From Parcubacteria group bacterium CG10_big_fil_rev_8_21_14_0_10_36_14 (GTDB lineage Bacteria; Patescibacteriota; Patescibacteriia; GCA-002772895): a DNA stretch of 64,000 bases. The DNA is taken from positions 6,728 through 70,727 of the forward strand of contig PFCS01000050.1 in the NCBI GenBank assembly GCA_002772895.1. Direction: 5' to 3'. Every line of letters begins with the position of its first letter. Positions within the stretch are counted from its first letter, which is position 1. Made by a program: the position numbers and the translations under genes. Of this stretch, positions 12,550 to 58,659 are shown piece after piece. The notes under the pieces are model-generated. The model was not told the DNA's origin. It worked only from the letters and a program-made list of their open reading frames with translations, and did no database searches.

Positions 12550-12577
12550 TTTAAAATCCCCTTTCGGGGATTTTAAA
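12550..12577. terminator. Intrinsic terminator hairpin between convergent genes (MFS-like on +, SDR epimerase on -).
   Basis: ttaaaatcccc-tttc-ggggattttaa is a perfect 11-12-bp stem with a 4-nt loop, followed by TTTTT on the plus strand. It sits in the 65-nt gap between the stops at 12515 and 12581. Confidence 0.65.
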
Positions 12578-12580
12578 TTT

Positions 12581-13483
12581 TTATAAATAGATTTCCTTTA
12601 CTCTTCTTATTCCTTCTTCAATGTTTATTCTAGGTTCCCAATCAAGCAACTCTTTTGCTCTTGTTACGTCCGCGATAGTGTCTTGCGGATCACCTTTTCT
12701 TCTTTCCAGGTACACTCTTTCTCCGCCAATCAAATCGGCTATTTTATTAATACTTTGATTATTGGCCGCTCCAATATTTATAACATCGCCTTTTCCAGCT
12801 TTAGAACTCATTGCAGCTTTTAAATTTGCCTCCACTACATCATCAACATAAGTAAAATCACGGGTAATCTCACCATCACCAAAAATAGTAAATGCTTTTC
12901 CCTCTTTTTTTTGTTTTATAAACGTAGCGATTGCAGTTGTATATGCTCCGTGGAAAGCCATCTTTGGACCATAAACATTAAAATAACGTAAGGAAACGCC
13001 CTCTAAACCAAACAGGTCATAAAAATTTTTTATATAAAGCTCTCCAACATATTTCTGCACTCCATACGGACTAAGGGGCGCTACCGGCATACTTTCTTCT
13101 AAGGGCATCTTAGTTTGTGCGCCATATGCAGATGATGATGCTGAATATACAACGCGCTTCAATCCATTTTCTTTGGCCGCCATTAAAACATTAATCGTCG
13201 ACTCAACGTTATTGCGGTTAGTCTCTCTCGGCTTTTCTATTGAAAGGGGCACGCGCGCCAAAGCCGCAAAATGAAAGGCATAATCTACTCCTTTGAAATA
13301 GTGTTTCATTATTTCATAGTCGCAAAGGTCAACTTCATAAAAGCTTGCGCGCGGATCAATATTCTCGCGCACTCCGGTTGATAAATTATCCAATATCAAA
13401 ACTTCGTGCCCAAGATCCAGCGCCTTTTGTGTAAAATTAGATCCGATAAAACCAGCCCCTCCTGTGACTAAAAATTTTGACAT
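12581..13483 (-). CDS. NAD-dependent sugar epimerase, SDR family (GalE/WbpP-like UDP-hexose 4-epimerase).
   Basis: MSKFLVTGGAGFIGSNFTQKALDLGHEVLILDNLSTG is the GxxGxxG Rossmann signature. The YxxxK catalytic region falls around YGVQKYVGE. Length 300 aa. Confidence 0.75.
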   Translation of the reverse strand: MSKFLVTGGAGFIGSNFTQKALDLGHEVLILDNLSTGVRENIDPRASFYEVDLCDYEIMKHYFKGVDYAFHFAALARVPLSIEKPRETNRNNVESTINVLMAAKENGLKRVVYSASSSAYGAQTKMPLEESMPVAPLSPYGVQKYVGELYIKNFYDLFGLEGVSLRYFNVYGPKMAFHGAYTTAIATFIKQKKEGKAFTIFGDGEITRDFTYVDDVVEANLKAAMSSKAGKGDVINIGAANNQSINKIADLIGGERVYLERRKGDPQDTIADVTRAKELLDWEPRINIEEGIRRVKEIYL

Positions 13484-13488
13484 ATTTT

Positions 13489-14280
13489 TTATTTTCCTTC
13501 TTTACCAACTAAATTATTATTAATTTCTTCTACGATTTTTAAAAGTCGTTGCTCCGCACCAAGCCGATCACCAAGCTGAATAAATGCTCTTGTATCTTTT
13601 GGAAGACATTTGCCTCCATAACCACGGTAACCTTTGTGCATTACTTTTAGATGAGAAGGGCCTATTCGCTTATCTGCAGCCGCGCACTCAGAAACTAAAT
13701 CATAGTCGGCATTTAATTTTTCACACACATCATACATCTGATTTGCAAAGATTACCTTTGTAGAAAACCATGTATTATTAAAATATTTTATGAGTTCTGC
13801 AACTTTTGCCGGAACAATCCGTTCAAATGGAGCCAAAGGCAACATAAGTACTATATCTTTCGCAACTGTAAAGCTTTTTTCCGTATAACCCACAATTTGT
13901 CTGTCCGGATAACTCATATCCTGGTCAGCCGTAACTTCAGTTAAAAATTCCGGATTAAATAATATCTTGTGCTGAGGGAATTCTTCCTGTAACATATCGG
14001 TAGAACCGGGTAAAATCGTAGATTTTAAAACAATTATTTTTTCGCCTATTAAGATAGAAAAAGCCTGTCTTACATAGGATAAATCAAAGCCACCCCTTTC
14101 TTCATCATAAGGAGTAGGCACACAAACAAAAATTATATCAGCCTTATTGATTTCTTCTTTTGAGTCTAATCCTCTTGGCGGATCATACAAAATTGGCATC
14201 TCACCATTTTTTTCAAAAAAACGGGCCATAGCTCCTCCAACCATCCCTACACCCATTATTCCAATTTTATAATTTTGCAT
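13489..14280 (-). CDS. UDP-glucose/GDP-mannose dehydrogenase family protein, compact form lacking the C-terminal UDP-binding domain.
   Basis: IGIMGVGMVGGAMA (NAD-binding), ILFNPEFLTEVTADQDMSYPDRQIVG and GYRGYGGKCLPKDTRAF (catalytic Cys box, cf. GGSCFPKD). The ORF is only 263 aa and ends just after the central domain; the next gene starts 6 nt later. Confidence 0.65.
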   Translation of the reverse strand: MQNYKIGIMGVGMVGGAMARFFEKNGEMPILYDPPRGLDSKEEINKADIIFVCVPTPYDEERGGFDLSYVRQAFSILIGEKIIVLKSTILPGSTDMLQEEFPQHKILFNPEFLTEVTADQDMSYPDRQIVGYTEKSFTVAKDIVLMLPLAPFERIVPAKVAELIKYFNNTWFSTKVIFANQMYDVCEKLNADYDLVSECAAADKRIGPSHLKVMHKGYRGYGGKCLPKDTRAFIQLGDRLGAEQRLLKIVEEINNNLVGKEGK

Positions 14281-14320: not shown

Positions 14321-15001
14321 TTAGTACTCAATATCATTTTTTGAACTCATTAAGCTTACATTAGAAACTTCCATCAAATTTTGTAGTTCTTTTACAAAAT
14401 TTGTAGCTTCTTTATCATCAATAAATCTAATGTTGAATGTGAAATCAAGTGCCTTCCCTTCTCCACGAGTTCCTATGTTTATTATGTTGGCATATTTTAA
14501 ATATTTATCAAAAATCGGCTTATATGCATTATTGTCCGAGGAGCTGTTCAAATTAAACATTAAAACATAATCATAATTCTTCATTGAGCCAAAGTCTATC
14601 TTAGACAAAACTAACACAACAATCATTATAAGAATGGTTGCAATAATAGCAACTGTATAGTTCCCGGTACCGACTGCCATGCCCGTCACTAATGCCCAAA
14701 AAACAAATGCGATGTCTCTAGTTTCTTTAATCGCAGTCCTAAAACGAATAATAGTAAAAGCACCTAATAGAGTAAACGCGGCGGCGATGCTGTTTCCTAT
14801 TACCATCATTACAATAGAGATGAGGATACTCATCAAGATAAGCGTAAATACAAACGAACGCGAATAAGAAAGACCCGAATGTGTCTTTTTGTATACTAGC
14901 GCTATTAGTACCGTTAAACCAAAAGACAATCCAATGTTTACTACAATAGTGATTGGATTAATTGATAAACCCCCTCCTGCTCCTTGTAAAATATCAAACA
15001 T
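14321..15001 (-). CDS. DUF4956-family membrane protein (partner of the VTC-domain protein).
   Basis: Four hydrophobic helices in the N-terminal 140 aa, then a soluble tail. Sequence pattern (FTLLGAFTIIRFRTAI, AFVFWALVTGMAVGTG) and the adjacency to a VTC-domain gene match the known DUF4956/VTC pairing. Confidence 0.6.
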   Translation of the reverse strand: MFDILQGAGGGLSINPITIVVNIGLSFGLTVLIALVYKKTHSGLSYSRSFVFTLILMSILISIVMMVIGNSIAAAFTLLGAFTIIRFRTAIKETRDIAFVFWALVTGMAVGTGNYTVAIIATILIMIVVLVLSKIDFGSMKNYDYVLMFNLNSSSDNNAYKPIFDKYLKYANIINIGTRGEGKALDFTFNIRFIDDKEATNFVKELQNLMEVSNVSLMSSKNDIEY

Positions 15002-15005
15002 ATTT

Positions 15006-15767
15006 TTAGTATTTTAATTGATTATTTTTTTTAATTGTATCTATCCCGTAACAATACTTTGAAAACGCTTCACGATTTAATTCATGCTTTTGGATAACCT
15101 TATGCAACCACCCTGGTAAAATATTATTATACTTTATTTCCATTATTGCTAAATCACGAAAAATTGGATTAAAATTTTTTCTATCTGTAAAACTTCCCGC
15201 GCCAGCCGCTTCAATATCATAGTCAAAGGTTATGCGTAAATTATTATCAAAACGCGAAACTAACGGATTCCTCTTATAGCGAACTAACACTAATGGCAGC
15301 ATTGAATAGCTCCGCTGTCTTACCGTAAATTCTTCAAGAATATCACTATCTCTATCATTTTTTTCAAAATGCAATACCTCACCGCTTATCGCTCTTCTAT
15401 AATTGTCTATGCTTAAAAAAGTTCTATCTTTTACAACGATAGCATCCGACTTCCTTTTAATTTCTAAAAAAATTGTTTGTGGATTATCTAACTGCTCACC
15501 GTAAGTTCTTAAGCGAAGTTTTGCCCTATTTTTCATTCCGCTAATTTTTTCATTGTAGCATCTAAGTGTTGGGCTGTCAAAGTATATACTATTTACAGAA
15601 TACCCATCCTGTCCCAATTCTAAAAATGGATCACGCACTAAATGATTTCTAAGTAGAACGCTATACATTTGACCCATTTCTCTTTTAGGTAAAAAATATT
15701 TAAATTCAAACCTCTGGAATCTATTTTTAATTTTTTGGTTGTCTACACCTACTTCGCTATCGTTCAT
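15006..15767 (-). CDS. VTC-domain (polyphosphate-polymerase-like, CYTH/triphosphate-tunnel fold) protein.
   Basis: RFQRFEFKYFLPKRE...SIYFDSPTLRCYNEKISGMKNRAKLRLRTYGE...FLEIKRKSD matches the VTC-domain pattern (cf. ERHEYKYLI) of alternating charged beta strands. Confidence 0.6.
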   Translation of the reverse strand: MNDSEVGVDNQKIKNRFQRFEFKYFLPKREMGQMYSVLLRNHLVRDPFLELGQDGYSVNSIYFDSPTLRCYNEKISGMKNRAKLRLRTYGEQLDNPQTIFLEIKRKSDAIVVKDRTFLSIDNYRRAISGEVLHFEKNDRDSDILEEFTVRQRSYSMLPLVLVRYKRNPLVSRFDNNLRITFDYDIEAAGAGSFTDRKNFNPIFRDLAIMEIKYNNILPGWLHKVIQKHELNREAFSKYCYGIDTIKKNNQLKY

Positions 15768-16129
15768 ATTATAGATAAAATTTTATCATTTTTAGAATCT
15801 TTGTAATAAATATTTTTTAATTTACGACTCTGATCTATGTCCGGTAAAATAGTTATTTGCGGATTAGCCACAAATACCTGTTCAACCAATAAAGCATCAC
15901 CGTCTCTGTCAATAGAGATACAATTAATATTCATAATTTTTACAATCGGACTTATTAAAATAGCACCTTGGAGTAACGCCCTTCTAATATCGCCATCACT
16001 CACAACTCCAAGTAAAGTATCGTTTGAATCTACAATAAAAGCTGCCCCCTTCTGATTAGAGTTTATTGCCTCCATAGCTTCCATTATATTGGCAGTTTCA
16101 CTAATAACAAGATCGCTATCTTTAAACAT
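15764..16129 (-). CDS. CBS-domain pair protein.
   Basis: 121 aa. ...AAFIVDSNDTLLGVVSDGDIRRAL... and ...LLVEQVFVANPQITILPD... are two CBS-like modules. It overlaps the VTC gene by 4 nt (ATGA). Confidence 0.55.
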   Translation of the reverse strand: MFKDSDLVISETANIMEAMEAINSNQKGAAFIVDSNDTLLGVVSDGDIRRALLQGAILISPIVKIMNINCISIDRDGDALLVEQVFVANPQITILPDIDQSRKLKNIYYKDSKNDKILSII

Positions 16130-19052: not shown

Positions 19053-20657
19053 TTATTTTTTCATCTGGGTTCCAGATAGAATACCTTCGTCCCCATTTAA
19101 TTTTAATTTTCTTACATTATGATAAGTAGGAAAAGCCTCCATTAAAATTCTCCACCGTTTATATAAATCTTCACGCGAACACCATGGTGTATTAATCTGA
19201 ACAACCTCAGGTGTCACGGCAGCATAAGAAACGGTCACTAACGTATCTGTGCTATCAGGAAATACAAGATACCCAAATTTTTCACAAAATTCATAAAGTT
19301 CTGTACCAGGAAGTGGCGTAGTAATCAATGGGGTTATACCCTTAGACCCCATATAATGAAACTTTTCTAAAAATTTTAATGTCTTCTCAAAGCTTCTCTC
19401 GTCTTCACCTTGAATATAAGAGTTCCCTTTACTGTCTCTAAAATAAAACTCTTCGTATTTTGGTACATTTCGATAACTTGATCTTTTTATTTTTCCACCC
19501 GGATAACCAACGATCAAAAAGCAACTGAACGGAAGTTTCGCCTCGTTGCACCAATCAGCTACCTGAAGCGCCTGATCTAAATGTTGAAAAGCATTAAACT
19601 TATTCATGGCTACGAGTATTCGCTCATCACCAGACTCTACTGGCAAATAAAGAATTTCCACTCCTGCTCGCGCTATTGCAAAAACAACTTCTTTGTCCAT
19701 CTTCTCCAACATAACACCATTTGGAAAGGTACATTTCAGATCATGTCCTTTTTCTCGAATTTTTGCAATACCGTCTAAAATTTCGAGAACACGTTTCTTA
19801 TTAAACGTAAAATTATCATCGGCAATCTCTATCCGATTTATGCCAAATTCTTCAATACAAAACCTTATTTCTTTTAATACTCTCTCTGTGGAAAATGCCC
19901 GAAAACGCTGACCCTTTTCTGGAGATGAACAAAATTGGCAATCAAAGGGGCATCCTCTAGAACTAATTAAATGAAGGGTTCTGTCAACTCTATTGCCCCA
20001 TGTAGACAATGTTACATATTCTTCCATGGGTCTAAATCTATAACTTGGAAAAGGTAGCTTATCTATGTCTCTAAATTGCTCTACACGCAAACCCGTATCT
20101 TTAATTGTCCCATCGGGCAAACGACACACTAACCCCGGAATGTTTTCCCAAGGTTCGTCATTCAATATGCGCGTAAAGGCTATTTCACCCTCGCCTCTTA
20201 CCACAATATCAGCTCCCGACTCTTCAATAACCTCTCGTGGCAAAGTAGTTGCCAATACGCCACCGACAACAACTGTTATTTTGGAAAAAATAGATTTTAT
20301 CTTTTTAACCAGCGGATACAAGGCCAATCGAGAATCAGTAAACGGTGCATTAATACCAATAATATCTGTCTCTTTTGGAATACGACCAATAATCCATTCA
20401 TCAGAATGTCCAAAACGCCTAATTGGTTGCTGCCTTAAATTATAAACCTCTTCGCTAATTGCTTCTCCACCCTCCATCATCGGATCAATAAAGGCAATAA
20501 TTAAGTGCCCATTTTCTTCTGCATAAGCACCAACATACCCTAACCCGAGTTGCTGTGATCTAAATTCTACCTCATTGTAAAAGAGCCATGGACAAGCGAT
20601 AAGACATACTTTTTTTCGTAGCAACCTATGTTCTATATTTTCTTCACGCTTTTCCAT
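19053..20657 (-). CDS. B12-binding-domain radical SAM enzyme (class B rSAM; putative methyltransferase).
   Basis: N-terminal cobalamin-binding-like Rossmann segment (KVCLIACPWLFYNEVEF...LGLGYVGAYAEENGH) and radical SAM cluster motif SSRGCPFDCQFCSS. 534 aa. Paralogous to 37111-38520 and 60043-61452. Confidence 0.8.
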   Translation of the reverse strand: MEKREENIEHRLLRKKVCLIACPWLFYNEVEFRSQQLGLGYVGAYAEENGHLIIAFIDPMMEGGEAISEEVYNLRQQPIRRFGHSDEWIIGRIPKETDIIGINAPFTDSRLALYPLVKKIKSIFSKITVVVGGVLATTLPREVIEESGADIVVRGEGEIAFTRILNDEPWENIPGLVCRLPDGTIKDTGLRVEQFRDIDKLPFPSYRFRPMEEYVTLSTWGNRVDRTLHLISSRGCPFDCQFCSSPEKGQRFRAFSTERVLKEIRFCIEEFGINRIEIADDNFTFNKKRVLEILDGIAKIREKGHDLKCTFPNGVMLEKMDKEVVFAIARAGVEILYLPVESGDERILVAMNKFNAFQHLDQALQVADWCNEAKLPFSCFLIVGYPGGKIKRSSYRNVPKYEEFYFRDSKGNSYIQGEDERSFEKTLKFLEKFHYMGSKGITPLITTPLPGTELYEFCEKFGYLVFPDSTDTLVTVSYAAVTPEVVQINTPWCSREDLYKRWRILMEAFPTYHNVRKLKLNGDEGILSGTQMKK

Positions 20658-31676: not shown

Positions 31677-32625
31677 ATAATATTTTTTTCACTTTCTCAG
31701 CAATGAAAATTTCCGTATTTTTCATTGAGTCATAAGTTGCACCACCGATGTGCGGAACAATTATTAGATTATTATGCGACTTAGTATATTCAAGAAGCAA
31801 ATTACCTTTTAAAAATTCTCCACCAGCGGTTTCTTCTGCCATAACATCAAGCCCTGCTCCGGCAATTTTCTTGGCCTTTAAGGCATTTAAAAGCGCGCTT
31901 TCATTTATAATTTTTCCCCGCGAAGTGTTTACTAGATATGCGCTTTCTTTCATCATCTTAAATTCCCGTTCACCTATTAAATCAACCGTCTCTTCATCCA
32001 AAGGCACATGCACGCTAATAAAATCAGCCCGCGACAGAAGCTCTTCAAAAATTGCTGACTCTGCCGCGCCACGCTCAATTTCCTCTTGGTTAACATACGG
32101 ATCATAGGCAACAACATTCATAAAAAACGCATTTCCATATTGAGCAATAATTTTTCCTAGCCGTCCAAAACCAATTATTCCTAAAGTTTTACCACGCAGC
32201 TCTATACCCTTAAAACTATCACGGTCCCAATTTTCTTTTTTCACCGACTCATATGCATCAGGTATATGCCGGATTAAAGCCAAGAACAGTCCCCAAGACA
32301 ATTCTGCAGTAGCTGTTATTGTATTTAAAAATTCCGTCTCCCCCTTTAAGCTTGCAACTTGCACGCCATGCTTCCCTGCCTCTTTCATATCAATATGGTC
32401 CAGCCCGGTTGTCGGACAAGCAATAATTTTTAAATCTTCCGCTGCATCTAAAATCTCTTTATCAATTTTATGTTCTAAACGGATAACTAAAATATCAGCG
32501 TCTTTTACGCCTGCCAGTAATTCACCTCGCGATAATTTCTTTTCTGCAAAAACATCTCCCACCTCTTGATAAATTGCAAGCGCCTCCTTACTGTAATCGC
32601 CGGGTTCACTAATTAAAATTTTCAT
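31675..32625 (-). CDS. D-isomer-specific 2-hydroxyacid dehydrogenase (SerA/GhrB/PdxB-like, NAD-binding).
   Basis: GKTLGIIGFGRLGKIIAQYG (GxGxxG), ...ISVHVPLDEETVDLIGEREFKMMKESAYLVNTSRGKIINESALLNALK...GAGLDV is the D-2-HADH catalytic domain pattern. Confidence 0.8.
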   Translation of the reverse strand: MKILISEPGDYSKEALAIYQEVGDVFAEKKLSRGELLAGVKDADILVIRLEHKIDKEILDAAEDLKIIACPTTGLDHIDMKEAGKHGVQVASLKGETEFLNTITATAELSWGLFLALIRHIPDAYESVKKENWDRDSFKGIELRGKTLGIIGFGRLGKIIAQYGNAFFMNVVAYDPYVNQEEIERGAAESAIFEELLSRADFISVHVPLDEETVDLIGEREFKMMKESAYLVNTSRGKIINESALLNALKAKKIAGAGLDVMAEETAGGEFLKGNLLLEYTKSHNNLIIVPHIGGATYDSMKNTEIFIAEKVKKIL

Positions 32626-35312
32626 AAGTTTGTAATTTTAGACAAAACGTCAGTCGCTATATCCTGACCATTATTTTCAAAAGTATTCTTTCCAAGCTTT
32701 GGAAATCCTCCGCCAAAAAATTCTTTCTTCTGATAGACGGATATTCCCGTCTGGTTGCCGGAAATTATATTGTCATATATTTTTGGTTCAGACAAGTCTT
32801 TCACAGCAATACCCATAACGCATCCATTAAGCTTATTACTAAAAATATCCGGATTAGAGTTTTCTCCCAAACTGATGCATTTATCGCCTGAACTTTTTAC
32901 TTCATTATTCGATATTTCCACGCTGGAACCGGAAATATCAATTCCGTCATTACCGTTACCATCAAAAATGTTGTCATAGATCTTACCACTTATAAAATCG
33001 CCGTCCAAACCGTCAAATCCATTTTTATAAAAATAAGAGTCCACTATTTCTACTTTTGCATTTTTAACATTCAATCCGTCATCCCCGCCGGCATATTTAA
33101 ATTGACAATTTTTTATTGAGATATCCGAACTGTGGCTTGCCAGGGCACCGGAAAAATGAATTCCATTTACGCGAGTATCCCCGCCATATTCAAATTCAAC
33201 ATATTCAAATTCACTCTTCTCCGGCACATCCACTATGCCAAAATTTCCCCAATAATCGTTGGAGTTCGCCGATAAAAATTTAATCGGATAGTCCTTACTT
33301 CCTTTAGCAATAACTGGGCTATAAGAACCGATTGATACTCCTTTTGCCATATAAAAAATTGCACCCGGCTCTATTTTTAGATGAATCCCCTTCGGGACTA
33401 TTAGCGTTTTATTAATATAATACGTACCCGCCGAAACATATGCGTCTCCATTTCCCGTAGCTTTAAACGAAGGATTTTTAGATATAAACTCATTAAGAGA
33501 TAGGTTGATATCATCTAAATTATTAAAATTACTATTATCTATATAAATTACTTCCGAACCCACTTTTTTACCGGTTAAAGAATTATCCAGCTCCATGTCA
33601 ACCGCAAAATCATCCGAATAAAATCCGGTTCCAATGCCTGCGGTAAAAAATATTTTATGGGTTACAGGCTGTAGAATAAAGCCTGTTCTTACATATTCAT
33701 CGTCATACTTATCAGCAGGAGGAACAAGTTTGGAAGATAGCACTATTTTCTGTTCTCCAAATTTAGCTTCTCCGTCCTTGTTAACAGTGTCTTTTTCTAA
33801 AAGAATATCGGCCGAGGTTAATTTTCCATCCATATCGCTGTCATAATAAGCGCTTACCAGAAAACCAGGAACAAGCCCGCTTATTTTTATTTCTTTTATC
33901 GTCATATCCACCGCGCTGTTTACCGTTATATCAGCCTCTGCAATTTCATAGTTTAAGAATGAATTTTTGTTATAGATAACCTTTGTAAAGGCTTCCGATT
34001 TTTTAAGATATTCTTTTATGAAATTAAAATTACTTTCTATCAAGCTCCTTGTTTCCTTATAACCCTTGATAAAAGTGCTATTTGAAAAATTCTTTTTCGA
34101 ATCCTTAAAAAATTCAATGCGGACGCTGTTGTATAAATCATCTATAAACTTTAAATCATCTTTAAGATTATCTTTGTCGCTAACATAATCCCAAGCCCTT
34201 TGGTTTATTTCAGTGGCAAAATCTGGAGATTCTAAAACGCGCGTTATAAGAGGATTAAAGAAAAGATAAGGAGAACCGATTGAAGCCAGGTCATTTCCCT
34301 CTGATTGCCAAGTAAAAAATTTAAATTTTCCATTTGTATTATCATAATACAAGTTCATGTTATGTCTCCAGTCCTCATGATTTCCACCAATTAAAAGTGT
34401 GTGCAAATACCACTCCATAAAACTTTTCTTATCTACAATATTAAAAATATTGTCATGAAATTCTTCTTGGTCTGCCTGGTTTACTAAATATGTAAGGCGA
34501 GCAATTGCCACGTAATTATCCGGTCTCTCGCCCGGATCAGCAACTCTTTTATCCCAATAATAAGGATCTTCAAAAATATATTTTTCATTTATATACCTTT
34601 CCGTAAAAAAATCAGTATCTCCAGAAAGTTTGTTTGTTTCCAGAAACTCTTTGCTCCATTGATTTATCTTATAATAAACTCCATATGCCTTGCCATTTAT
34701 CCTAAGCAACACAAAATCGCTGTCCAACACCTTTAATCCAATCTTTTCCGCTCTATAGTTATTGAACGGTTCAAGTAAATCACCGCCCACAATAAGATTT
34801 ATCGCACTCGTCCCTTCAAAAATCGCAGAATCACTAAATCTTATGCGCCATGATTTTTTATCATATCTCCAATGAAAATCAGAATTGCCTCTATATCTTA
34901 CCTCAACATTATAACTCTTACCCCCATATGAAAACTTGGCATTTATATACTTTTGATTTTCCTCAACAAACATCGCACCTTCTTCGGTTGGCAACGAATC
35001 ATTTATTTTCTTCCAATCTTTCTCGTCTATTATCAAATCGTAAACAGGCAGGTCTGGTTTCTTAAAAGAATAAATCAAATACGGCGCATCTTGGATCTTG
35101 CGCACAATTTTATCGGCCCATTTTGAATAAGGTGCTGGAAGTATGCTAAAAAGATATCTTTTTTTAATGCCATAATCATAAAAAAGAGATACAAGCACAA
35201 CCAAAACAATCAGATTGGCCACAAAAAGGCACCTGAAAAATATCTTTCTAAATACAGGGCTTCTTAATTTGTTATTTAATAACTTTATATATCTTAATAT
35301 CATCTGAATCAT
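32622..35312 (-). CDS. Large membrane-anchored/secreted protein: N-terminal CotH-family (atypical kinase) domain fused to a C-terminal right-handed parallel beta-helix (pectate-lyase/NosD-like) repeat domain.
   Basis: N-terminal TM segment (FFRCLFVANLIVLVVLVSLF). CotH-like core reads FSYGGKSYNVEVRYRGNSDFHWRYDKKSWRIRFSD...INLIVGGDLLEPFNNYRAEKIGLKV...LRINGKAYGVYY. C-terminal beta-helix repeats read NGFDGLDGDFISGKIYDNIFDGNGNDGIDISGSSVEISNNEV...GISVY. Paralog at 55840-58659. Confidence 0.65.
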   Translation of the reverse strand: MIQMILRYIKLLNNKLRSPVFRKIFFRCLFVANLIVLVVLVSLFYDYGIKKRYLFSILPAPYSKWADKIVRKIQDAPYLIYSFKKPDLPVYDLIIDEKDWKKINDSLPTEEGAMFVEENQKYINAKFSYGGKSYNVEVRYRGNSDFHWRYDKKSWRIRFSDSAIFEGTSAINLIVGGDLLEPFNNYRAEKIGLKVLDSDFVLLRINGKAYGVYYKINQWSKEFLETNKLSGDTDFFTERYINEKYIFEDPYYWDKRVADPGERPDNYVAIARLTYLVNQADQEEFHDNIFNIVDKKSFMEWYLHTLLIGGNHEDWRHNMNLYYDNTNGKFKFFTWQSEGNDLASIGSPYLFFNPLITRVLESPDFATEINQRAWDYVSDKDNLKDDLKFIDDLYNSVRIEFFKDSKKNFSNSTFIKGYKETRSLIESNFNFIKEYLKKSEAFTKVIYNKNSFLNYEIAEADITVNSAVDMTIKEIKISGLVPGFLVSAYYDSDMDGKLTSADILLEKDTVNKDGEAKFGEQKIVLSSKLVPPADKYDDEYVRTGFILQPVTHKIFFTAGIGTGFYSDDFAVDMELDNSLTGKKVGSEVIYIDNSNFNNLDDINLSLNEFISKNPSFKATGNGDAYVSAGTYYINKTLIVPKGIHLKIEPGAIFYMAKGVSIGSYSPVIAKGSKDYPIKFLSANSNDYWGNFGIVDVPEKSEFEYVEFEYGGDTRVNGIHFSGALASHSSDISIKNCQFKYAGGDDGLNVKNAKVEIVDSYFYKNGFDGLDGDFISGKIYDNIFDGNGNDGIDISGSSVEISNNEVKSSGDKCISLGENSNPDIFSNKLNGCVMGIAVKDLSEPKIYDNIISGNQTGISVYQKKEFFGGGFPKLGKNTFENNGQDIATDVLSKITNL

Positions 35313-37104
35313 ATACTTTTATTAACCAGTCTTCGCCTTCCAGACTGCTATTTTTTATAAAATCATAAATGCCTTCACTTTTATAGGCACCAAAATACAA
35401 ATAATCAATCTTATATTTATTGATCAAATAATGGATATTGCGCGGATACGCCATATACAATTTCGATATGTCGCCAAGCTTTTCCGCAATAAGCTTTTCT
35501 GCTGTTTTCTCATATTCTGGATCTTTTTTGAATTGGCTACCAATTCTTGTATCACTAAAATAATCTCCAAATAAATACAGCGAATCTTTATTTATTATCC
35601 CATCAAAAACATCTTGCGAAACATTAAACAGCTTATGGACAATAATCCACCGGTCATAAAGCTCTTCGGAAGATCCAGGAAACATCATTGGGTCTCCGTA
35701 CATTACTTTGCCAGAAGTATATACGGGCACCAAAAAATTTATAAAAAGCGACGGAGAAACAACGACCGCATCTTTTTCTATATTTTTATCCATCCATTCC
35801 AGCGAATTACTAATATTTTTAGGGATAGTATGAGCCGGATAATCCATTATCCCCCTATATATATTTACATGAACTGCGCGTGCTGTTATTATAAGCGCCA
35901 ACAAAATAAAACATCCGGTCACAATCTTTCGCCTCGTCGGATATTTCGCTTCCAACCACTTATATAAAGTATAGGCAAAGGCTATCCAAGCCAAAGCAAA
36001 TCCGTAATAAAATTGATGGTAATACCAATTTGTAGCAAAAGGCGAATATCCTCCAAAAAGCTGGATATTAAGCAGGAATATTGGCGCCAATGCAAAGCCT
36101 ATTAAATATATGGCAGTCTTTTTTTCTTTTATTGTTTTCCAAATAAGCAAAGCAAAAGCAACATACAGTAGATATTCGAAAACATGCCGTCCCAAGCGGA
36201 GCGTCCTGCCAAATTCGCCCCCTAAACGCAAGAATATGTCCGTTGACCACGGAAGGGACTTAAGAGCAAAGAAATTAAAGAAAAATAGCGATGAAATCAG
36301 CATGGCCAGCATTAAAATCCAAAAAATTCTTTTTGCCACCAAATGGTCTTTAAATAATAAAAATAATATCATCATTATCCCCAAAGCAGTCCAAATGTAC
36401 ATAGCGCTTGTTGGAAAAAAATAAACGAGCAAACCACTAAATATTCCGGCTAAGGCTATATACAACTTCTTTCCTTTTGTTATGGCTAAATATGTAAAAA
36501 GAAAGGTTAGAGAAAAAGGAATAAGCCCCGGCAATACCGATACGCTGTCATATTTATTCGTAAGGATGTGGATTGGCGGGCTACCCAAAAAAGTCAGCGT
36601 TCTTACAGAAATCTTTATCTGCTCCAATGTAATGGGAAATATCAGATAAAAAATATTTGCGGCTGAAGTAAAAACAAGAGAAGAAAAAATGCTAAAATAT
36701 CGGTTGCCGGTTATATTTTTTATAATCAAATAAAAAATTAAAAAGGTAAAAAAACCCACAATAAAATATCCCACCAAATAAAGATACTGCAGGGAGCCAA
36801 ATAGAGCAACCAGAGGAAAAAGAAGCCATGCATTATAATATGTACTCCAAAGCGCAGGCGCGTGCATATACTCATATGTTGCGCCGTCAGACCCCAGCCA
36901 ATGCCCATCCAAAAGATCCCTTATTTGCGGAGCAATAAAAGTGATTGGATCAGGCGCTCCTGGCACAAAATCACTATAAGGTAAACCATATTCTTTCAAT
37001 TTGAAAAAAGCTGACGCTTTAGTTAAATCAAAAATACAACCCGCAACTATGGCGGATAATAATACTGCTACTATAAGTAATGTCTTTTTCTTTTTTTTAT
37101 CCAT
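35272..37104 (-). CDS. Large polytopic membrane protein with C-terminal extracytoplasmic domain; candidate GT-C-fold glycosyl/oligosaccharyl transferase or polymerase.
   Basis: 610 aa, more than 12 predicted TM helices, then a ~200-aa soluble C-terminal domain (YPAHTIPKNISNSLEWMDKNIEKDAVVVSP...). No diagnostic motif recognised. Overlaps the downstream gene by 41 nt. Confidence 0.45.
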   Translation of the reverse strand: MDKKKKKTLLIVAVLLSAIVAGCIFDLTKASAFFKLKEYGLPYSDFVPGAPDPITFIAPQIRDLLDGHWLGSDGATYEYMHAPALWSTYYNAWLLFPLVALFGSLQYLYLVGYFIVGFFTFLIFYLIIKNITGNRYFSIFSSLVFTSAANIFYLIFPITLEQIKISVRTLTFLGSPPIHILTNKYDSVSVLPGLIPFSLTFLFTYLAITKGKKLYIALAGIFSGLLVYFFPTSAMYIWTALGIMMILFLLFKDHLVAKRIFWILMLAMLISSLFFFNFFALKSLPWSTDIFLRLGGEFGRTLRLGRHVFEYLLYVAFALLIWKTIKEKKTAIYLIGFALAPIFLLNIQLFGGYSPFATNWYYHQFYYGFALAWIAFAYTLYKWLEAKYPTRRKIVTGCFILLALIITARAVHVNIYRGIMDYPAHTIPKNISNSLEWMDKNIEKDAVVVSPSLFINFLVPVYTSGKVMYGDPMMFPGSSEELYDRWIIVHKLFNVSQDVFDGIINKDSLYLFGDYFSDTRIGSQFKKDPEYEKTAEKLIAEKLGDISKLYMAYPRNIHYLINKYKIDYLYFGAYKSEGIYDFIKNSSLEGEDWLIKVYDSDDIKIYKVIK

Positions 37105-55839: not shown

Positions 55840-58659
55840 ATGCTCAAAATAATAATTGAAAAGCACAAAAAGAAACTGCTGGCATGCGCGGTGTTATTTA
55901 TTATCGGTATTTTATCTGCCAATTTATTTTTCTTGGGAATATATATAAGAAACAACAAAAATATCTTGATTTTTGATTCTGCAGTACAATATCTCCTACC
56001 TGTTTATCGATTTATGCGCAAAAGTTATAATAACGCGATAAATACGTTCTATCTGCCAAAAACAATAGGGGCATCGGAAATACCCCACTACAAATTGACG
56101 ATTAAAAAAAATCAGCTGGAAAAATTAAATAAAAATTTGCCTGAGTCGATATCCGATGCCGTTTTTAGCGGAAGTGTTTTCTTGGAGGACGAATATAAGA
56201 AAACAGTGCCCGCAATCTTTTCTTATGGTGACAAAAAATACGAAGTAGAGGTACATTACCGAGGTGACAACCCAAACCATTGGACCAAAGAAAAAAAATC
56301 TTGGCAAATAATATTCAGCCAGGAAAACTTATTTAACGGCCAAGAAGTGTTAAAACTTATATTGCCCATAGACCGAGGTTATCTTGCGGAGGCTCTAAAT
56401 GCTTATCGGGCAAAAAAAATGGGTCTATTGGTGCCTGCGGACAATTTTGTAAATTTAGAAATAAATAAAAAAAATGCTGGCGTATATTACCAAGTCGAAG
56501 ATTGGTCAAAAGGATTTTTGGAAAAACAACAAGTGCCGGCCGACTCCAGTATTTATACGACCAATGACGGTCTTATTAGCCTCAGAAAAGAAGAAAACCG
56601 CCAAGATACATCAGCCTTTGAAGATATAAATCTTTGGAAAAAAAATATATCTGATAAATTATTTACTTATAATAATTTTTCAGATATAAAAAAACTGGTC
56701 GAAATACTGCAAAGCCAAAATAAAGACGAAGCATACAAAATATTGCCACAAATACTTGATATGGAAAAGTTTTACAGCTGGACTAACGTTGCCCTATTGG
56801 TTTCAGGAGGCCATCAGGGAGGTAAAGGCAATATGCGTCTATACTTTAACAATAGTAGCGGAAAATTTGAACCAATCCCTTGGGATGTAACAATAAGAGA
56901 TAGCGATGCGCTTTTTGAAGACTGGCAAAGTATCATCAATAACTTTATATATTCAAATAAAAAATTATTTTTTGAACAAAAAAAATCCCTGTGGAATTAT
57001 TTAAGTAACGAAGATAATTTAAAAGACGACCTAAGCTTTTATGATAAACTTTATGAAACAACACGCCCAGCTTTTTACGATGATTGGATAAAAGTAGACA
57101 ATAATTTAACCTTTGATAAAAAAATAAAAGAAATGCGCGATATTATTAAAAATAGGTTTAGTAATCTAAAAGATCTTTATAAAATTGATAATTCAAGCAT
57201 GATTATAAATTATGACTCCGATATAAATCTGATAACGGCAACGACTAAAGCGGATAATTTCGCCGGCATAATGCTAAAAAGCCTTAAACTACCGACAGAC
57301 GACAATATGTTTGTTGAAGCATTTGATGATTCCAATAATAATCTTAAACTTGATAAGGACGATAAAATCATAAAAACCGGCTACATCAATAAAAATGACA
57401 ACACAATAAAAGATATTAATAAATTAATTTATGATAAAGATGAAGTGGCCATATTCATAAAAATTATTCCTTATGGAACACAGCAAAACGGCTTAAATCT
57501 TAAAAATGTAAAAATAAAATTTGACAATGCAATCACCAAAAAAGATATTGATATAAAAAGCATAGTCTTATCAGACGACACCTCTTTTAATTATCTTCCC
57601 AAGACTATCTATAGTCCTCGGCAATTTGTAAACGAAAATCCCATATTTAAAACAGATGGAGAAAAAATATTTCTACCCGCTGGCTCTTATACCATCACAA
57701 AAAATATAATAATTCCGCAAAAATCCCAGTTGATAATACAGCCTGGCGTTGTCCTAACCTTTTATCCAAAAATATCACTCATATCTTACAGCCCTGTTTC
57801 GGCAATTGGCTATTCCGATAGTCCTATTATATTCCAATCCGCCTATCAAGGGCAACCGTGGGGATCTTTTGGCATAGTTAATACCGAGAAAGAAAAAAAC
57901 AAGCTACAATTTATAAATATATCCGGTGGTGGGAGTTCTTATATAAACGGTATTTTCTTTAGTGGAATGTTATCAGCCTACCATGCCGACCTTGAATTAA
58001 GCGATAGTTTAATTCAAAACAGCTCATCGGATGACGGCGCAAATGCAAAGTACGGAAATGTGGTAATAAAAAATAACAGATTTATAAAAAATAGTGCGGA
58101 CGGCTTGGATATAGACTACGCAAAAGGAGAGATAAGTAATAATTATTTTAGTAGCAATGGCAATGACGGCATAGATATCTCCGGTTCTTCAATCAGTATT
58201 AAAAATAATACAATACTTGCATCAGGGGACAAATGTATAAGCGTAGGAGAGAATTCAAAAGAGCCGGTTATTTTTAATAATATTTTAAATGGATGTAATA
58301 TAGGAATAGAATCAAAAGATTTATCAACCCCGGTTATTTTGAATAATGTCATTATAAATAATAATATAGGCATAAATGCCTATAGAAAAAAAGAGATTTT
58401 TGGTGGCGGATTTGGAAAAATATATAACAATATTATCTGGGACAATAAAGAAAATATAAAAACGGATGAATACTCACAATTCGAAGCTGATTACAACGAC
58501 ATTGAAACCAACTATTCAGGAGAGTATAACTTTTATGAAGAGCCATCTGAAAATTATTATAAACCGGGTTTAGAAAATTATCACGGTAAAGGAAACCGGG
58601 ACATTCTAAAAAAATATCTTGAAATTAATCTTGAGGAAGCTCCGGTAGGGCTAATGTAA
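55840..58659 (+). CDS. CotH-family domain fused to a right-handed beta-helix repeat domain (paralog of 32622-35312), membrane-anchored/secreted.
   Basis: TM anchor LLACAVLFIIGILSANLFFL. CotH-like FSYGDKKYEVEVHYRGDNPNHWTKEKKSWQIIFSQENLF...LKLILPIDRGYLAEALNAYRAKKMGL. Beta-helix repeats ...DGLDIDYAKGEISNNYFSSNGNDGIDISGSSISIKNN...NIGINAY... are colinear with the other copy. Confidence 0.65.
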   Translation: MLKIIIEKHKKKLLACAVLFIIGILSANLFFLGIYIRNNKNILIFDSAVQYLLPVYRFMRKSYNNAINTFYLPKTIGASEIPHYKLTIKKNQLEKLNKNLPESISDAVFSGSVFLEDEYKKTVPAIFSYGDKKYEVEVHYRGDNPNHWTKEKKSWQIIFSQENLFNGQEVLKLILPIDRGYLAEALNAYRAKKMGLLVPADNFVNLEINKKNAGVYYQVEDWSKGFLEKQQVPADSSIYTTNDGLISLRKEENRQDTSAFEDINLWKKNISDKLFTYNNFSDIKKLVEILQSQNKDEAYKILPQILDMEKFYSWTNVALLVSGGHQGGKGNMRLYFNNSSGKFEPIPWDVTIRDSDALFEDWQSIINNFIYSNKKLFFEQKKSLWNYLSNEDNLKDDLSFYDKLYETTRPAFYDDWIKVDNNLTFDKKIKEMRDIIKNRFSNLKDLYKIDNSSMIINYDSDINLITATTKADNFAGIMLKSLKLPTDDNMFVEAFDDSNNNLKLDKDDKIIKTGYINKNDNTIKDINKLIYDKDEVAIFIKIIPYGTQQNGLNLKNVKIKFDNAITKKDIDIKSIVLSDDTSFNYLPKTIYSPRQFVNENPIFKTDGEKIFLPAGSYTITKNIIIPQKSQLIIQPGVVLTFYPKISLISYSPVSAIGYSDSPIIFQSAYQGQPWGSFGIVNTEKEKNKLQFINISGGGSSYINGIFFSGMLSAYHADLELSDSLIQNSSSDDGANAKYGNVVIKNNRFIKNSADGLDIDYAKGEISNNYFSSNGNDGIDISGSSISIKNNTILASGDKCISVGENSKEPVIFNNILNGCNIGIESKDLSTPVILNNVIINNNIGINAYRKKEIFGGGFGKIYNNIIWDNKENIKTDEYSQFEADYNDIETNYSGEYNFYEEPSENYYKPGLENYHGKGNRDILKKYLEINLEEAPVGLM

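What the first reader, a model, noticed from the sequence alone, without database searches (positions are those of the whole stretch)
14321..15767. VTC-domain + DUF4956 membrane-protein pair inside the glycan operon
The VTC domain is the triphosphate-tunnel catalytic core of eukaryotic vacuolar polyphosphate polymerase; that is established. In bacteria it recurs next to a DUF4956 multi-pass membrane protein, as here, and the function of that pair is undefined. The pair is co-transcribed in the middle of the sugar-nucleotide genes; the VTC gene overlaps the downstream CBS gene by 4 nt. This raises the possibility of a membrane-coupled (poly)phosphate or nucleotide-triphosphate-processing step linked to glycan assembly.
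Basis: partly seen in the sequence, partly recalled or inferred. Interest (0 to 1): 0.5.

Follow-up and report, generated by a model that had tools for sequence, protein, structure and literature searches.

The report
VTC–DUF4956 polyphosphate module, CotH-linked
A surface-sugar gene cluster of a Parcubacteria genome carries a widespread two-gene cassette, a yeast-type polyphosphate-polymerase domain with every catalytic residue intact plus an MgtC-like membrane partner, that usually travels with a cell-surface CotH kinase-like protein; the module has been noted before, but what it does is still untested.

Summary
ORF 15006-15767(-) is a full-length VTC domain (Pfam 2.3e-40). ORF 14321-15001(-) is DUF4956 (1.7e-16), with five predicted TM helices and an ACT-like C-domain. 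All nine Vtc4 residues that bind triphosphate/Mn are present and conserved across the family. The AF2 model (pLDDT 93.5) matches Vtc4 best (TM 0.72-0.75).

In relatives the unit is CotH–VTC–DUF4956:
- VTC lies directly upstream of DUF4956 in 63 of 75 genomes.
- CotH is in the locus in 59 of 70.

In this window the module is split. Two membrane-anchored CotH/β-helix genes lie 17 and 40 kb away, and a sialic-acid-type cassette ending in the CBS gene sits where CotH sits in the closest relatives.

The pair is enriched in glycan loci but not confined to them. One lineage fuses VTC to a GT2 polysaccharide synthase.

The trio is already described as an accessory set of Gram-positive pel operons with unknown function; deletions there gave no Pel or aggregation phenotype.

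Best model (inferred, about 0.35): polyphosphate is made at the membrane, handed through or to DUF4956, and used by the extracytoplasmic CotH to phosphorylate surface polymers.

Verdict: a new member of a known but uncharacterised module. Interest is moderate.

The parts
15006..15767 (-). Stand-alone VTC (triphosphate-tunnel) domain protein of 253 aa, soluble. It is the predicted catalytic subunit, a Vtc4-type polyphosphate polymerase domain.
   Evidence: Pfam PF09359 scores 2.3e-40 over the full length. The family profile hits Vtc4 3g3q at E=5.9e-24 across the whole catalytic domain. The AF2 model has pLDDT 93.5 and pTM 0.90. The Foldseek top hits are Vtc4 structures at TMq 0.72-0.75, against about 0.5 for CYTH triphosphatases. 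No TM segment was found. K23, R85, R87, K104, Y164, R166, E210, S236 and K237 correspond to Vtc4 K200, R264, R266, K281, Y359, R361, E426, S457 and K458.
14321..15001 (-). DUF4956 membrane protein of 226 aa, with five predicted TM helices (16-40, 48-68, 72-88, 94-111, 115-134), a cytoplasmic ACT-like C-terminal domain (145-219) and an invariant acidic tail, D223-x-E225-Y226. It is the obligate partner of the VTC protein.
32622..35312 (-). CotH kinase-like plus right-handed β-helix protein (CotH1, 896 aa) with one N-terminal TM anchor. It is the likely third component of the module, displaced 17 kb from the pair. It lacks the DFG-like Asp, having Gln instead.
   Evidence: Pfam hits are CotH 1.6e-13, Beta_helix 1e-12 and NosD 3.6e-10. 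A TM-like segment spans residues 19-50. It is 39% identical over 881 aa to the CotH that directly precedes VTC in L003.
55840..58659 (+). Second CotH kinase-like plus β-helix protein (CotH2, 939 aa) with an N-terminal TM anchor, on the opposite strand at the edge of the glycan locus.
   Evidence: Pfam hits are CotH 3.4e-19 and Beta_helix 2.3e-12. phmmer against B. cereus CotH 5jd9 gives E=4.3e-16 over residues 122-441. A TM-like segment spans residues 11-37. It keeps the Asn and the 'IPWD' Asp but has His at the catalytic-Asp column.
15764..16129 (-). Stand-alone CBS-domain protein of 121 aa whose stop overlaps the VTC start (ATGA). It is probably part of the NeuC/NeuA/NeuB cassette rather than of the module. 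A regulatory role for VTC is possible but unsupported.
   Evidence: Pfam CBS scores 5.5e-8 and the protein resembles KpsF/GutQ CBS regions. CBS homologues are not recurrent next to the pair, with 2 weak hits in 80 loci.
12581..14280 (-). Conserved downstream neighbours in the closest relatives: a short UDP-glucose-dehydrogenase-like protein (13489-14280, 263 aa, no C-terminal domain) and a GalE-like epimerase (12581-13483). These are the last genes of the minus-strand unit.
   Evidence: Pfam results are. The same order VTC-DUF4956-short UGDH-epimerase occurs in L003 (81% and 90% identity) and in L092. A bidirectional hairpin terminator lies at 12550-12577.

Best explanation
The two genes are the invariant core of a three-part module, CotH–VTC–DUF4956, that bacteria attach to surface-polymer loci. 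What is shown: the 253-aa protein is a Vtc4-type triphosphate-tunnel domain with the complete set of triphosphate- and Mn-binding residues, including the Lys (K237, equivalent to Vtc4 K458) that is lost in the inactive yeast paralogues Vtc2/3. It is soluble and almost always encoded immediately before a DUF4956 membrane protein whose most conserved residues are basic and polar residues on the predicted cytoplasmic loops. What is inferred: the VTC protein docks on an oligomer of DUF4956 at the inner face of the membrane and polymerises phosphate from ATP or another NTP into a polyphosphate chain. As in the yeast VTC complex, where the tunnel domain sits on a membrane channel, the chain is passed to or through the membrane partner rather than accumulating in the cytoplasm. 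Outside the membrane, the anchored CotH kinase-like/β-helix proteins (two in this window) use that phosphate polymer as the phosphoryl source to modify the glycopolymer or surface proteins made by the surrounding locus. Extracytoplasmic space has no ATP. The ACT-like domain of DUF4956 would gate the process in response to a cytoplasmic ligand. In this genome the module has been split: a CBS–NeuC–NeuA–NeuB–rSAM cassette occupies the place that CotH holds in the nearest relatives.
For: Identity and catalytic competence: Pfam VTC at 2.3e-40; profile against Vtc4 at E=5.9e-24 over the whole domain; AF2 pLDDT 93.5; Foldseek best hits to Vtc4 at TM 0.72-0.75. K23, R85, R87, K104, Y164, R166, E210, S236 and K237 are invariant or at least 90% conserved in 57 homologues. 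They map onto exactly the residues whose mutation lowers polyP in yeast. Obligate pairing: VTC is directly upstream of DUF4956 in 63 of 75 loci and in the locus in 70 of 75, across Patescibacteria, Planctomycetota, Fermentibacteria, Proteobacteria and others. The pair persists without CotH or glycan genes. DUF4956 is more than an anchor: in the GT2-synthase::VTC fusion, where VTC is already membrane-tethered, DUF4956 is still encoded next, overlapping by 11 nt, and is followed by a secreted CotH. CotH link and topology: CotH is in 59 of 70 loci, and it directly precedes VTC in the closest relatives L003, L007, L092 and L093. Both window CotHs have an N-terminal TM anchor. At least 42 of 67 module CotHs have an N-terminal hydrophobic segment. 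The streptococcal homologue is described as secreted. Glycan link: published pel-operon adjacency, the GT2 fusion, glycan genes enriched among neighbours, and an exopolyphosphatase (Ppx-GppA) gene near one pair. Precedent: yeast Vtc4 couples synthesis to translocation through a channel lined with Lys/Arg rings.
Against: No biochemical data exist for any bacterial member. DUF4956 has no detectable similarity to the yeast VTC transmembrane domain. Its only relatives, the MgtC family, are regulators and are not known to be channels. Characterised CotH uses ATP and phosphorylates proteins inside the mother cell. Most module-associated CotHs, including both in the window, have His rather than Asp at the catalytic-base column, and CotH1 lacks the metal-binding Asp, so they may not be conventional kinases. 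Deleting each of the three genes in S. intermedius did not change Pel production or aggregation. About 15% of loci lack CotH, and roughly half of the full-size loci show no glycan gene nearby, so glycan phosphorylation cannot be the only role. In this window CotH is not adjacent, so its functional link to the pair here rests on comparison alone.
Confidence: 0.35

Rival explanations
1. The VTC protein makes polyphosphate that stays in the cytoplasm. DUF4956 is an MgtC-like regulator or anchor with an ACT sensor domain that tunes phosphate/ATP homeostasis or the output of the neighbouring polymer machinery. CotH acts independently of it.
For: This is the reading given for the streptococcal homologues. 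DUF4956 shows weak MgtC similarity in sequence and in the fold of its C-domain, and MgtC proteins are regulators. Pairs exist without CotH. A Ppx-GppA gene lies near one pair.
Against: It does not explain why a soluble polymerase needs a dedicated multi-pass membrane partner in 84-93% of loci. It does not explain why that partner is kept when VTC is already fused to a membrane synthase. It does not explain why an extracytoplasmic CotH is the commonest third gene, often translationally coupled to VTC.
Confidence: 0.27
2. The VTC-domain protein is not a polymerase. It is a tunnel-type metal-dependent triphosphatase or (poly)phosphate hydrolase, like bacterial CYTH enzymes, working at the membrane with DUF4956.
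For: The fold is shared with CYTH/TTM triphosphatases such as ygiF, AtTTM3 and ThTPase. The bacterial family keeps a Glu (E21, at least 90% conserved) at the position of the second Glu of the classical CYTH ExExK motif, where Vtc4 has Thr198.
Against: The protein is much closer to Vtc4 than to CYTH enzymes, with TM 0.72-0.75 against about 0.5, and it has no Pfam CYTH hit. It retains the Vtc4-specific Ser-Lys pair (S236-K237). That Lys is what distinguishes active Vtc4 from inactive Vtc2/3.
Confidence: 0.13
3. The pair is an enzyme step of this operon's sugar-nucleotide pathway (an NTP or triphosphate-processing step for nonulosonic-acid activation), with the CBS protein as its partner.
For: The pair sits directly after NeuB, a cytidylyltransferase, NeuC and CBS, and is translationally coupled to CBS.
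Against: The same pair occurs in loci with no NeuB/NeuC/cytidylyltransferase genes and in loci with no glycan genes at all. CBS is not a recurrent neighbour. In the nearest relatives CotH, not CBS, precedes VTC.
Confidence: 0.05

Closest known systems
Yeast vacuolar transporter chaperone complex (Vtc4 catalytic tunnel domain on the Vtc1/3/4 membrane channel)
   Same: The tunnel fold is the same, and all residues that bind triphosphate and Mn2+ are the same (K200, R264, R266, K281, Y359, R361, E426, S457, K458). A catalytic domain is combined with a membrane component.
   Different: There is no SPX regulatory domain and no fused DUF202-type 3-TM channel domain. The membrane partner is a separate, unrelated DUF4956/MgtC-like protein with an ACT-like domain. 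The bacterial family has extra conserved residues E21, R81 and K83 where Vtc4 has T198, A260 and A262. Activity is untested.
SIR_1592–SIR_1594 accessory genes of the Streptococcus intermedius pel operon, and the 'CotH / poly-phosphate polymerase / DUF4956 (/DUF4832)' accessory set of Gram-positive pel loci
   Same: The three protein families are the same: a secreted CotH, a VTC-like polymerase with catalytic residues, and a multi-TM MgtC-like protein with a C-terminal ACT domain. Both sit beside an exopolysaccharide locus, and function is unknown in both.
   Different: Here there are no pel genes. The host is a CPR bacterium and the locus is a nonulosonic-acid/teichoic-like glycan locus. CotH carries a β-helix instead of FN3 and is not adjacent to the pair. 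The preprint reported not finding the trio outside pel operons, which the loci examined here contradict.
MgtC/SapB/YhiD family membrane proteins
   Different: Scores are below the curated family thresholds: Pfam 19.7 against a cut-off of 31.4, and NCBIfam 28.5 against 214. DUF4956 has its own invariant motifs (THxGLSYS, IIRFRTAIK, C-terminal DxEY) and an obligate VTC neighbour, which MgtC does not have.
Bacillus CotH spore-coat Ser/Thr kinase (PDB 5JD9)
   Same: The window's two large proteins share the CotH atypical-kinase domain, with E=4.3e-16 to 5jd9. The Asn of the catalytic loop is conserved, and CotH2 also keeps the DFG-like Asp.
   Different: They are membrane-anchored or extracytoplasmic and fused to a β-helix (carbohydrate-binding type) domain. 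They have His at the column of the catalytic Asp (B. subtilis D228, whose D228Q mutant is inactive), and CotH1 has Gln at the D251 column. Substrate and donor are unknown.
Bacterial CYTH/TTM triphosphatases (for example E. coli YgiF)
   Same: They share the eight-stranded triphosphate tunnel fold with basic lining.
   Different: Structural similarity is lower, at TM about 0.5 against 0.72-0.75 for Vtc4. There is no Pfam CYTH hit. The signature is VTC-specific, and CYTH enzymes have no DUF4956 partner.

Membership tests
VTC domain family (Pfam PF09359; Vtc4-type triphosphate tunnel) | Full-length match to the VTC profile above the curated threshold | tested here: met
   139.1 bits against a cut-off of 23, covering profile positions 2-233 of 235. 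The family profile against Vtc4 3g3q gives E=5.9e-24.
VTC domain family (Pfam PF09359; Vtc4-type triphosphate tunnel) | Closed β-barrel tunnel fold closest to the Vtc4 catalytic domain | tested here: met
   The AF2 model has pLDDT 93.5. The Foldseek top 13 hits are all Vtc2/3/4, at TMq 0.64-0.75 and E down to 4.5e-14. CYTH enzymes score about 0.5.
Catalytically active Vtc4-type polyphosphate polymerase | Triphosphate/Mn-binding residues K200, R264, R266, K281, Y359, R361, E426, S457 and K458 (K458 is lost in inactive Vtc2/3) | tested here: met
   The window residues K23, R85, R87, K104, Y164, R166, E210, S236 and K237 align to them. They are invariant or at least 90% conserved in 57 homologues.
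Catalytically active Vtc4-type polyphosphate polymerase | Synthesis of polyphosphate from ATP | not testable with these tools
   This needs an enzyme assay. No paper in the searched library reports one for a bacterial member.
Eukaryotic VTC complex (Vtc1/2/3/4) | SPX regulatory domain and a C-terminal three-helix VTC1/DUF202-type channel domain | tested here: not met
   The protein is 253 aa, with only the VTC domain and no TM segment. The neighbouring membrane protein is DUF4956, with no PDB sequence or fold match to the VTC channel.
DUF4956 (Pfam PF16316) | Profile match above threshold | tested here: met
   60.8 bits against a cut-off of 30.6. There are 675 homologues at E<=1e-4, and the best 120 listed range from 45% to 100% identity.
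MgtC/SapB family (PF02308; NCBIfam PRK09977) | Profile match above the curated threshold | tested here: not met
   Pfam gives 19.7 bits against 31.4, and NCBIfam gives 28.5 against 214. The architecture and the fold of the C-domain are similar, so this is a distant relative at most.
CotH–VTC–DUF4956 module (pel-accessory type, SIR_1592-1594) | All three families encoded contiguously | tested here: not met
   VTC and DUF4956 are contiguous, but the two CotH genes lie 17 kb and 40 kb away, one on the other strand. In the relatives L003, L007, L092 and L093 the three are contiguous.
CotH–VTC–DUF4956 module (pel-accessory type, SIR_1592-1594) | Location in or next to an exopolysaccharide or surface-glycan locus | tested here: met
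   The pair lies within a roughly 54-kb run of glycan genes: GT2, GT4, NeuB/NeuC, Glyphos_transf, a flippase and Bac_transf. No pel genes were seen.
CotH protein kinase (B. subtilis type) | Catalytic Asp (D228) and metal-binding Asp (D251) | tested here: inconclusive
   In the alignment of 64 module CotHs with B. cereus CotH, the D228-equivalent column is His in both window proteins (His 38, Asp 11, Ser 8 of 64). The D251-equivalent column is Asp in CotH2 and Gln in CotH1. The alignment in this loop differs by one position.

The most novel reading that the evidence does not exclude
The module is a bacterial trans-membrane phosphate relay. A Vtc4-like polymerase builds polyphosphate on the cytoplasmic face, and an oligomer of the MgtC-like DUF4956 protein conducts it outward. 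Surface-anchored CotH-like enzymes with a non-canonical His active site use polyphosphate instead of ATP to phosphorylate or polyphosphorylate cell-surface glycans or proteins. This would be a third, PPK-independent route to polyP in bacteria. It would also explain how a kinase-like enzyme can be powered outside the cell, and it would operate in minimal CPR genomes as well as in streptococci, clostridia and marine bacteria.
Probability: 0.22. Interest if true: 0.85.

Novelty: new member of a known kind. Interest (0 to 1): 0.45.

Why it matters
If the VTC-type proteins are active, bacteria have a widespread polyphosphate synthase unrelated to PPK1 and PPK2. The VTC profile matched 12,514 protein clusters (50% identity) at E<=1e-10, a count that also includes the eukaryotic Vtc proteins. 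The constant pairing with a dedicated membrane protein, and the frequent pairing with an extracytoplasmic kinase-like protein, points to chemistry on the outer face of the membrane. There the source of phosphoryl groups is an open problem. The module sits in virulence-associated loci (the streptococcal pel operon, C. perfringens NELoc-2) and in the surface-glycan loci of CPR bacteria, whose envelopes are almost unstudied. This window does not answer the question. It does extend the module well beyond pel operons, and the comparison identifies testable residues and culturable carriers.

Tried and rejected
(1) The search for related loci with the VTC alignment failed because no stretch was conserved enough. 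I anchored on DUF4956 instead, so the co-occurrence figures are conditional on DUF4956 and biased towards its closer relatives.

(2) I tested the CBS protein as a conserved regulatory partner of VTC and rejected it, with 2 weak hits in 80 loci.

(3) I looked for VTC::DUF4956 or CotH::VTC fusions. There were none among the 120 listed DUF4956 homologues, the 57 VTC homologues or the top 150 representatives. The one fusion found was GT2::VTC. It is a single lineage: it is the only one among 332 relatives, and unfused orthologues of the GT2 part lack the module. It is therefore supportive but not recurrent evidence.

(4) The DUF4956 TM domain had no significant sequence hit and no fold match apart from the ACT-like C-domain. 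The afdb50 library was unavailable.

(5) The promoter and terminator scans showed no excess over shuffles, so they neither prove nor disprove co-transcription.

(6) The glycan-gene count by phmmer with window proteins is a lower bound for distant phyla. The Pfam census of the nearest neighbours confirmed enrichment without obligate linkage.

(7) Literature searches for any biochemical work on bacterial VTC or DUF4956 found none in the held library.
Full report
**Observation**

The first, 15006-15767, is 253 aa. The second, 14321-15001, is 226 aa. Pfam assigns the first to VTC (PF09359; E=2.3e-40; profile positions 2-233 of 235). It assigns the second to DUF4956 (PF16316; E=1.7e-16, above threshold), with a sub-threshold MgtC match. 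The window has one copy of each.

The gene upstream in the direction of transcription is a 121-aa CBS protein (15764-16129) whose TGA stop overlaps the VTC ATG. DUF4956 starts 4 nt after the VTC stop. A short UDP-glucose-dehydrogenase-like gene follows after 39 nt with an AGGAG site.

Terminator-like and promoter-like sites are not in excess. The only convincing hairpin lies after the last gene of the run, at 12550-12577. Co-transcription is therefore plausible but inferred.

The DUF4956 protein is 100% identical to a protein of a Parcubacteria MAG from the CG10 series. The host is therefore a CPR bacterium.

**The VTC protein**

A profile of 57 homologues aligns to the entire catalytic domain of yeast Vtc4 (3g3q, E=5.9e-24). 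Counting along the full-length chain 8i6v_E gives these correspondences:

| Window | Vtc4 |
|---|---|
| K23 | K200 |
| R85 | R264 |
| R87 | R266 |
| K104 | K281 |
| K113 | K294 |
| Y164 | Y359 |
| R166 | R361 |
| R178 | R373 |
| E210 | E426 |
| S236 | S457 |
| K237 | K458 |

The cryo-EM study of the VTC complex states that K200, R264, R266, K281, R361, K458, S457 and Y359 hold the triphosphate and that E426 holds Mn2+. Mutating any of the eight triphosphate-binding residues lowers polyP. K458 is the one residue replaced (by Ile or Leu) in the inactive paralogues Vtc2/3. All nine are present in the window protein and are invariant or at least 90% conserved in the family.

The AlphaFold model is confident (pLDDT 93.5, pTM 0.90). 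Its best structural matches are the Vtc4/2/3 tunnel domains (TM 0.64-0.75, E down to 4.5e-14). CYTH triphosphatases follow at about 0.5. The protein has no SPX domain, no TM segment and no channel domain.

The bacterial family also conserves E21, R81 and K83, where Vtc4 has T198, A260 and A262. E21 recalls the ExExK motif of CYTH hydrolases, so a hydrolytic activity cannot be excluded from sequence alone.

**The DUF4956 protein**

Conservation is much higher than in VTC, with a mean column identity of 57% against 29%. It is concentrated in the loops that the positive-inside rule places in the cytoplasm (H41, S45, Y46, S47; R86, F87, R88, K92, D96) and in the last residues (D223, E225, Y226). 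A basic, invariant cytoplasmic face is what one would expect of a docking or entry site for a phosphate polymer. That is an inference.

**Context in other genomes**

The closest VTC homologues with usable contigs all show CotH–VTC–DUF4956 inside glycan loci. A scan of one genome per species found at least 588 genomes with DUF4956 relatives. Eighty loci were kept, from Patescibacteria, Planctomycetota, Fermentibacteria, Pelagibacter, Roseovarius aestuarii KCTC 22174, Desulfocapsaceae and others.

I searched these loci with HMMs built from my own alignments:
- VTC lies directly upstream of DUF4956 on the same strand in 63 of 75 loci with enough flank.
- VTC is somewhere in the locus in 70 of 75.
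- CotH is present in 59 of 70.

More distant pairs occur with neither CotH nor glycan genes. In two cases they follow a 350-364-aa coiled-coil protein, and in one case they lie near an exopolyphosphatase gene. The two-gene pair is therefore the invariant unit and CotH is a frequent third member.

Glycan genes are common neighbours:
- At least 3 glycan-like ORFs occur in 14 of 39 full-size loci, mostly CPR.
- GT4, GT2, DegT and epimerases are among the commonest families in the four nearest genes.
- 19 of 39 loci have none detectable.
- No family other than the trio is obligate.

**This window compared with its relatives**

The window does contain CotH, twice. One copy is 32622-35312(-), 896 aa. 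The other is 55840-58659(+), 939 aa. Each has a CotH domain, a right-handed β-helix and a single N-terminal TM anchor.

In L003 the order is NTP_transf_3 – Glyphos_transf – CotH/β-helix – VTC – DUF4956 – short UGDH – epimerase. Identity to the window proteins is 69, 36, 39, 58, 70, 81 and 90% respectively. L092 and L093 are similar.

In the window, the block rSAM – NeuB – cytidylyltransferase – NeuC – CBS lies between Glyphos_transf and VTC. That is the position CotH holds in the relatives. CBS homologues are not found next to the pair elsewhere.

**A domain fusion**

Among the best 150 of 18,189 representative clusters matching the VTC profile, nearly all are stand-alone proteins of 231-292 aa. 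One, P0303 (718 aa), is a membrane-embedded GT2 synthase of the PgaC/cellulose-synthase type with a C-terminal VTC domain.

It occurs on contigs from two metagenome records, one held by ENA and one by JGI. There it sits between a DUF2334 deacetylase-like gene and DUF4956 (11-nt overlap), followed by a secreted LTD/CotH protein.

The fusion is a single lineage. It ties the tunnel domain physically to a polysaccharide synthase at the inner membrane face. Because DUF4956 is retained, it also shows that DUF4956 is not merely an anchor.

**CotH**

CotH2 aligns to B. cereus CotH (E=4.3e-16). In B. subtilis, D228Q and D251A are inactive.

I aligned 64 module-associated CotH domains with B. cereus CotH:
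- The column of the catalytic Asp holds His in 38, including both window proteins, Asp in 11 and Ser in 8.
- The catalytic-loop Asn is kept in 62.
- The DFG-like Asp is kept in 58.
- CotH1 is the only one with Gln at the DFG-like column.

The register in this loop shifted by one position between two alignments, so I treat this as a lead. At least 42 of 67 module CotHs have an N-terminal hydrophobic segment, and the streptococcal one is described as secreted. The CotH partner is therefore generally outside the cytoplasm.

**What is already known**

Whitfield et al. listed CotH, a 'poly-phosphate polymerase', DUF4956 and DUF4832 as an accessory set contiguous with pelDEADAFG in streptococci and clostridia. 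Bifidobacteria carry a variant in which a diguanylate cyclase/phosphodiesterase gene replaces DUF4832.

A 2024 study of S. intermedius described the three proteins: a secreted CotH-FN3, a VTC-like protein with catalytic residues, and a 4-TM MgtC-like protein with ACT. Deleting them did not affect Pel production or aggregation. The authors reported not finding the trio outside pel operons.

C. perfringens NELoc-2 carries VTC genes next to membrane proteins then annotated as 'tubulin/FtsZ', together with CotH and a chitin-synthase-like GT.

I found no biochemical study of a bacterial member.

**Mechanism**

Three things are shown:
- a Vtc4-type tunnel with a complete active site;
- an obligate membrane partner with a conserved basic cytoplasmic face and an ACT-like domain;
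- a frequent extracytoplasmic CotH/β-helix partner and frequent glycan context.

The rest is inferred by analogy with yeast, where the tunnel domain sits over a Lys/Arg-lined channel and synthesis is coupled to translocation. In this model polyP is made at the membrane and passed to or through DUF4956. It then serves the outside CotH as phosphoryl source for modifying the surface polymer. I put this at about 0.35.

The main rival, at about 0.27, is that polyP stays inside and DUF4956 is an MgtC-like regulator. A hydrolase role is at about 0.13.

**Verdict**

The finding is real and correctly identified. It is a new member, with a split arrangement and in a CPR non-pel glycan locus, of a module that is already on record as uncharacterised.

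The comparison adds several points:
- the pair is the invariant core;
- the module is widespread outside pel operons;
- the active site is fully conserved;
- the CotH partners are extracytoplasmic and often non-canonical;
- one lineage fuses VTC to a glycan synthase.

Interest is moderate. The function is a real open question with a testable model, but nothing in this window resolves it.

Noticed in passing
window 13489-14280 (-); L003 6361-7158; L092 11841-12605: A short UDP-glucose/GDP-mannose-dehydrogenase-like protein (263 aa; N-terminal and central domains only, no C-terminal UDP-binding domain) directly follows DUF4956. It is conserved at 81% identity and the same length class (254-265 aa) in related loci. 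The truncation is therefore not an assembly artefact.
   Followed up: partly
L090 3251-5407 and L091 607-2763 (protein P0303): A natural fusion joins a membrane-embedded GT2 polysaccharide synthase to a C-terminal VTC domain. It is followed by DUF4956 and a secreted LTD/ILEI/CotH protein and preceded by a DUF2334 deacetylase-like gene. It is seen on contigs from two metagenome records but is a single lineage.
   Followed up: yes
window 32622-35312 and 55840-58659; CotH ORFs of L007-L086: Most CotH domains that accompany the pair have His at the column of the catalytic Asp of Bacillus CotH (38 of 64; Asp in only 11). CotH1 of the window also has Gln at the metal-binding Asp column. These may be non-canonical phosphotransferases or pseudokinases.
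   Followed up: partly
window 19053-20657 (-) and 37111-38520 (-): There are two B12-binding radical-SAM enzymes inside the glycan locus. The first is most similar, below threshold at 149 bits, to the Sden_1168 family of P-methyltransferases. This hints at an unusual methylation or phosphonate-type modification of the glycan.
   Followed up: no
window 1935-55717: An almost unbroken minus-strand run of about 54 kb of glycan genes. It includes three Epimerase_2 (NeuC/WecB-like) paralogues, two TagF-like glycerophosphotransferases, a CDP-alcohol phosphatidyltransferase, at least nine class-I SAM methyltransferases, an AsnB-like amidotransferase, and FemAB-like and GNAT proteins. This is very large for a CPR genome.
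   Followed up: partly
window 35272-37104 (-): A 610-aa multi-pass membrane protein with no Pfam match lies immediately upstream of CotH1 and overlaps its start by 41 nt. Its function is unknown.
   Followed up: no
L087 7908-8960 and L089 7886-8980; L089 6544-7482: In CotH-less pairs from distant phyla, a 350-364-aa protein with weak HlyD/YbhG-hairpin or OEP-like similarity directly precedes VTC in two independent loci. An exopolyphosphatase (Ppx-GppA) gene lies nearby in one of them.
   Followed up: partly
window 15580-15552 (-): An 11-of-12 match to the sigma-70 consensus with an extended -10 TG lies inside the VTC gene, upstream of DUF4956. Promoter-like sites are not in excess in the region, so it may be chance.
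   Followed up: no
L007, L009, L012, L013, L017 (record titles): Several MAG contigs labelled 'uncultured Gammaproteobacteria' carry the DUF4956 versions most similar to the CPR-type query among the kept loci (45-52% identity), with CotH/β-helix and CPR-like glycan genes. The taxonomic labels of these bins look doubtful.
   Followed up: no
literature: bioRxiv 10.1101/2024.04.20.589940: The preprint reports that the CotH/VTC/MgtC-like trio was not found outside pel operons. The loci examined here show it in many non-pel contexts and phyla.
   Followed up: yes
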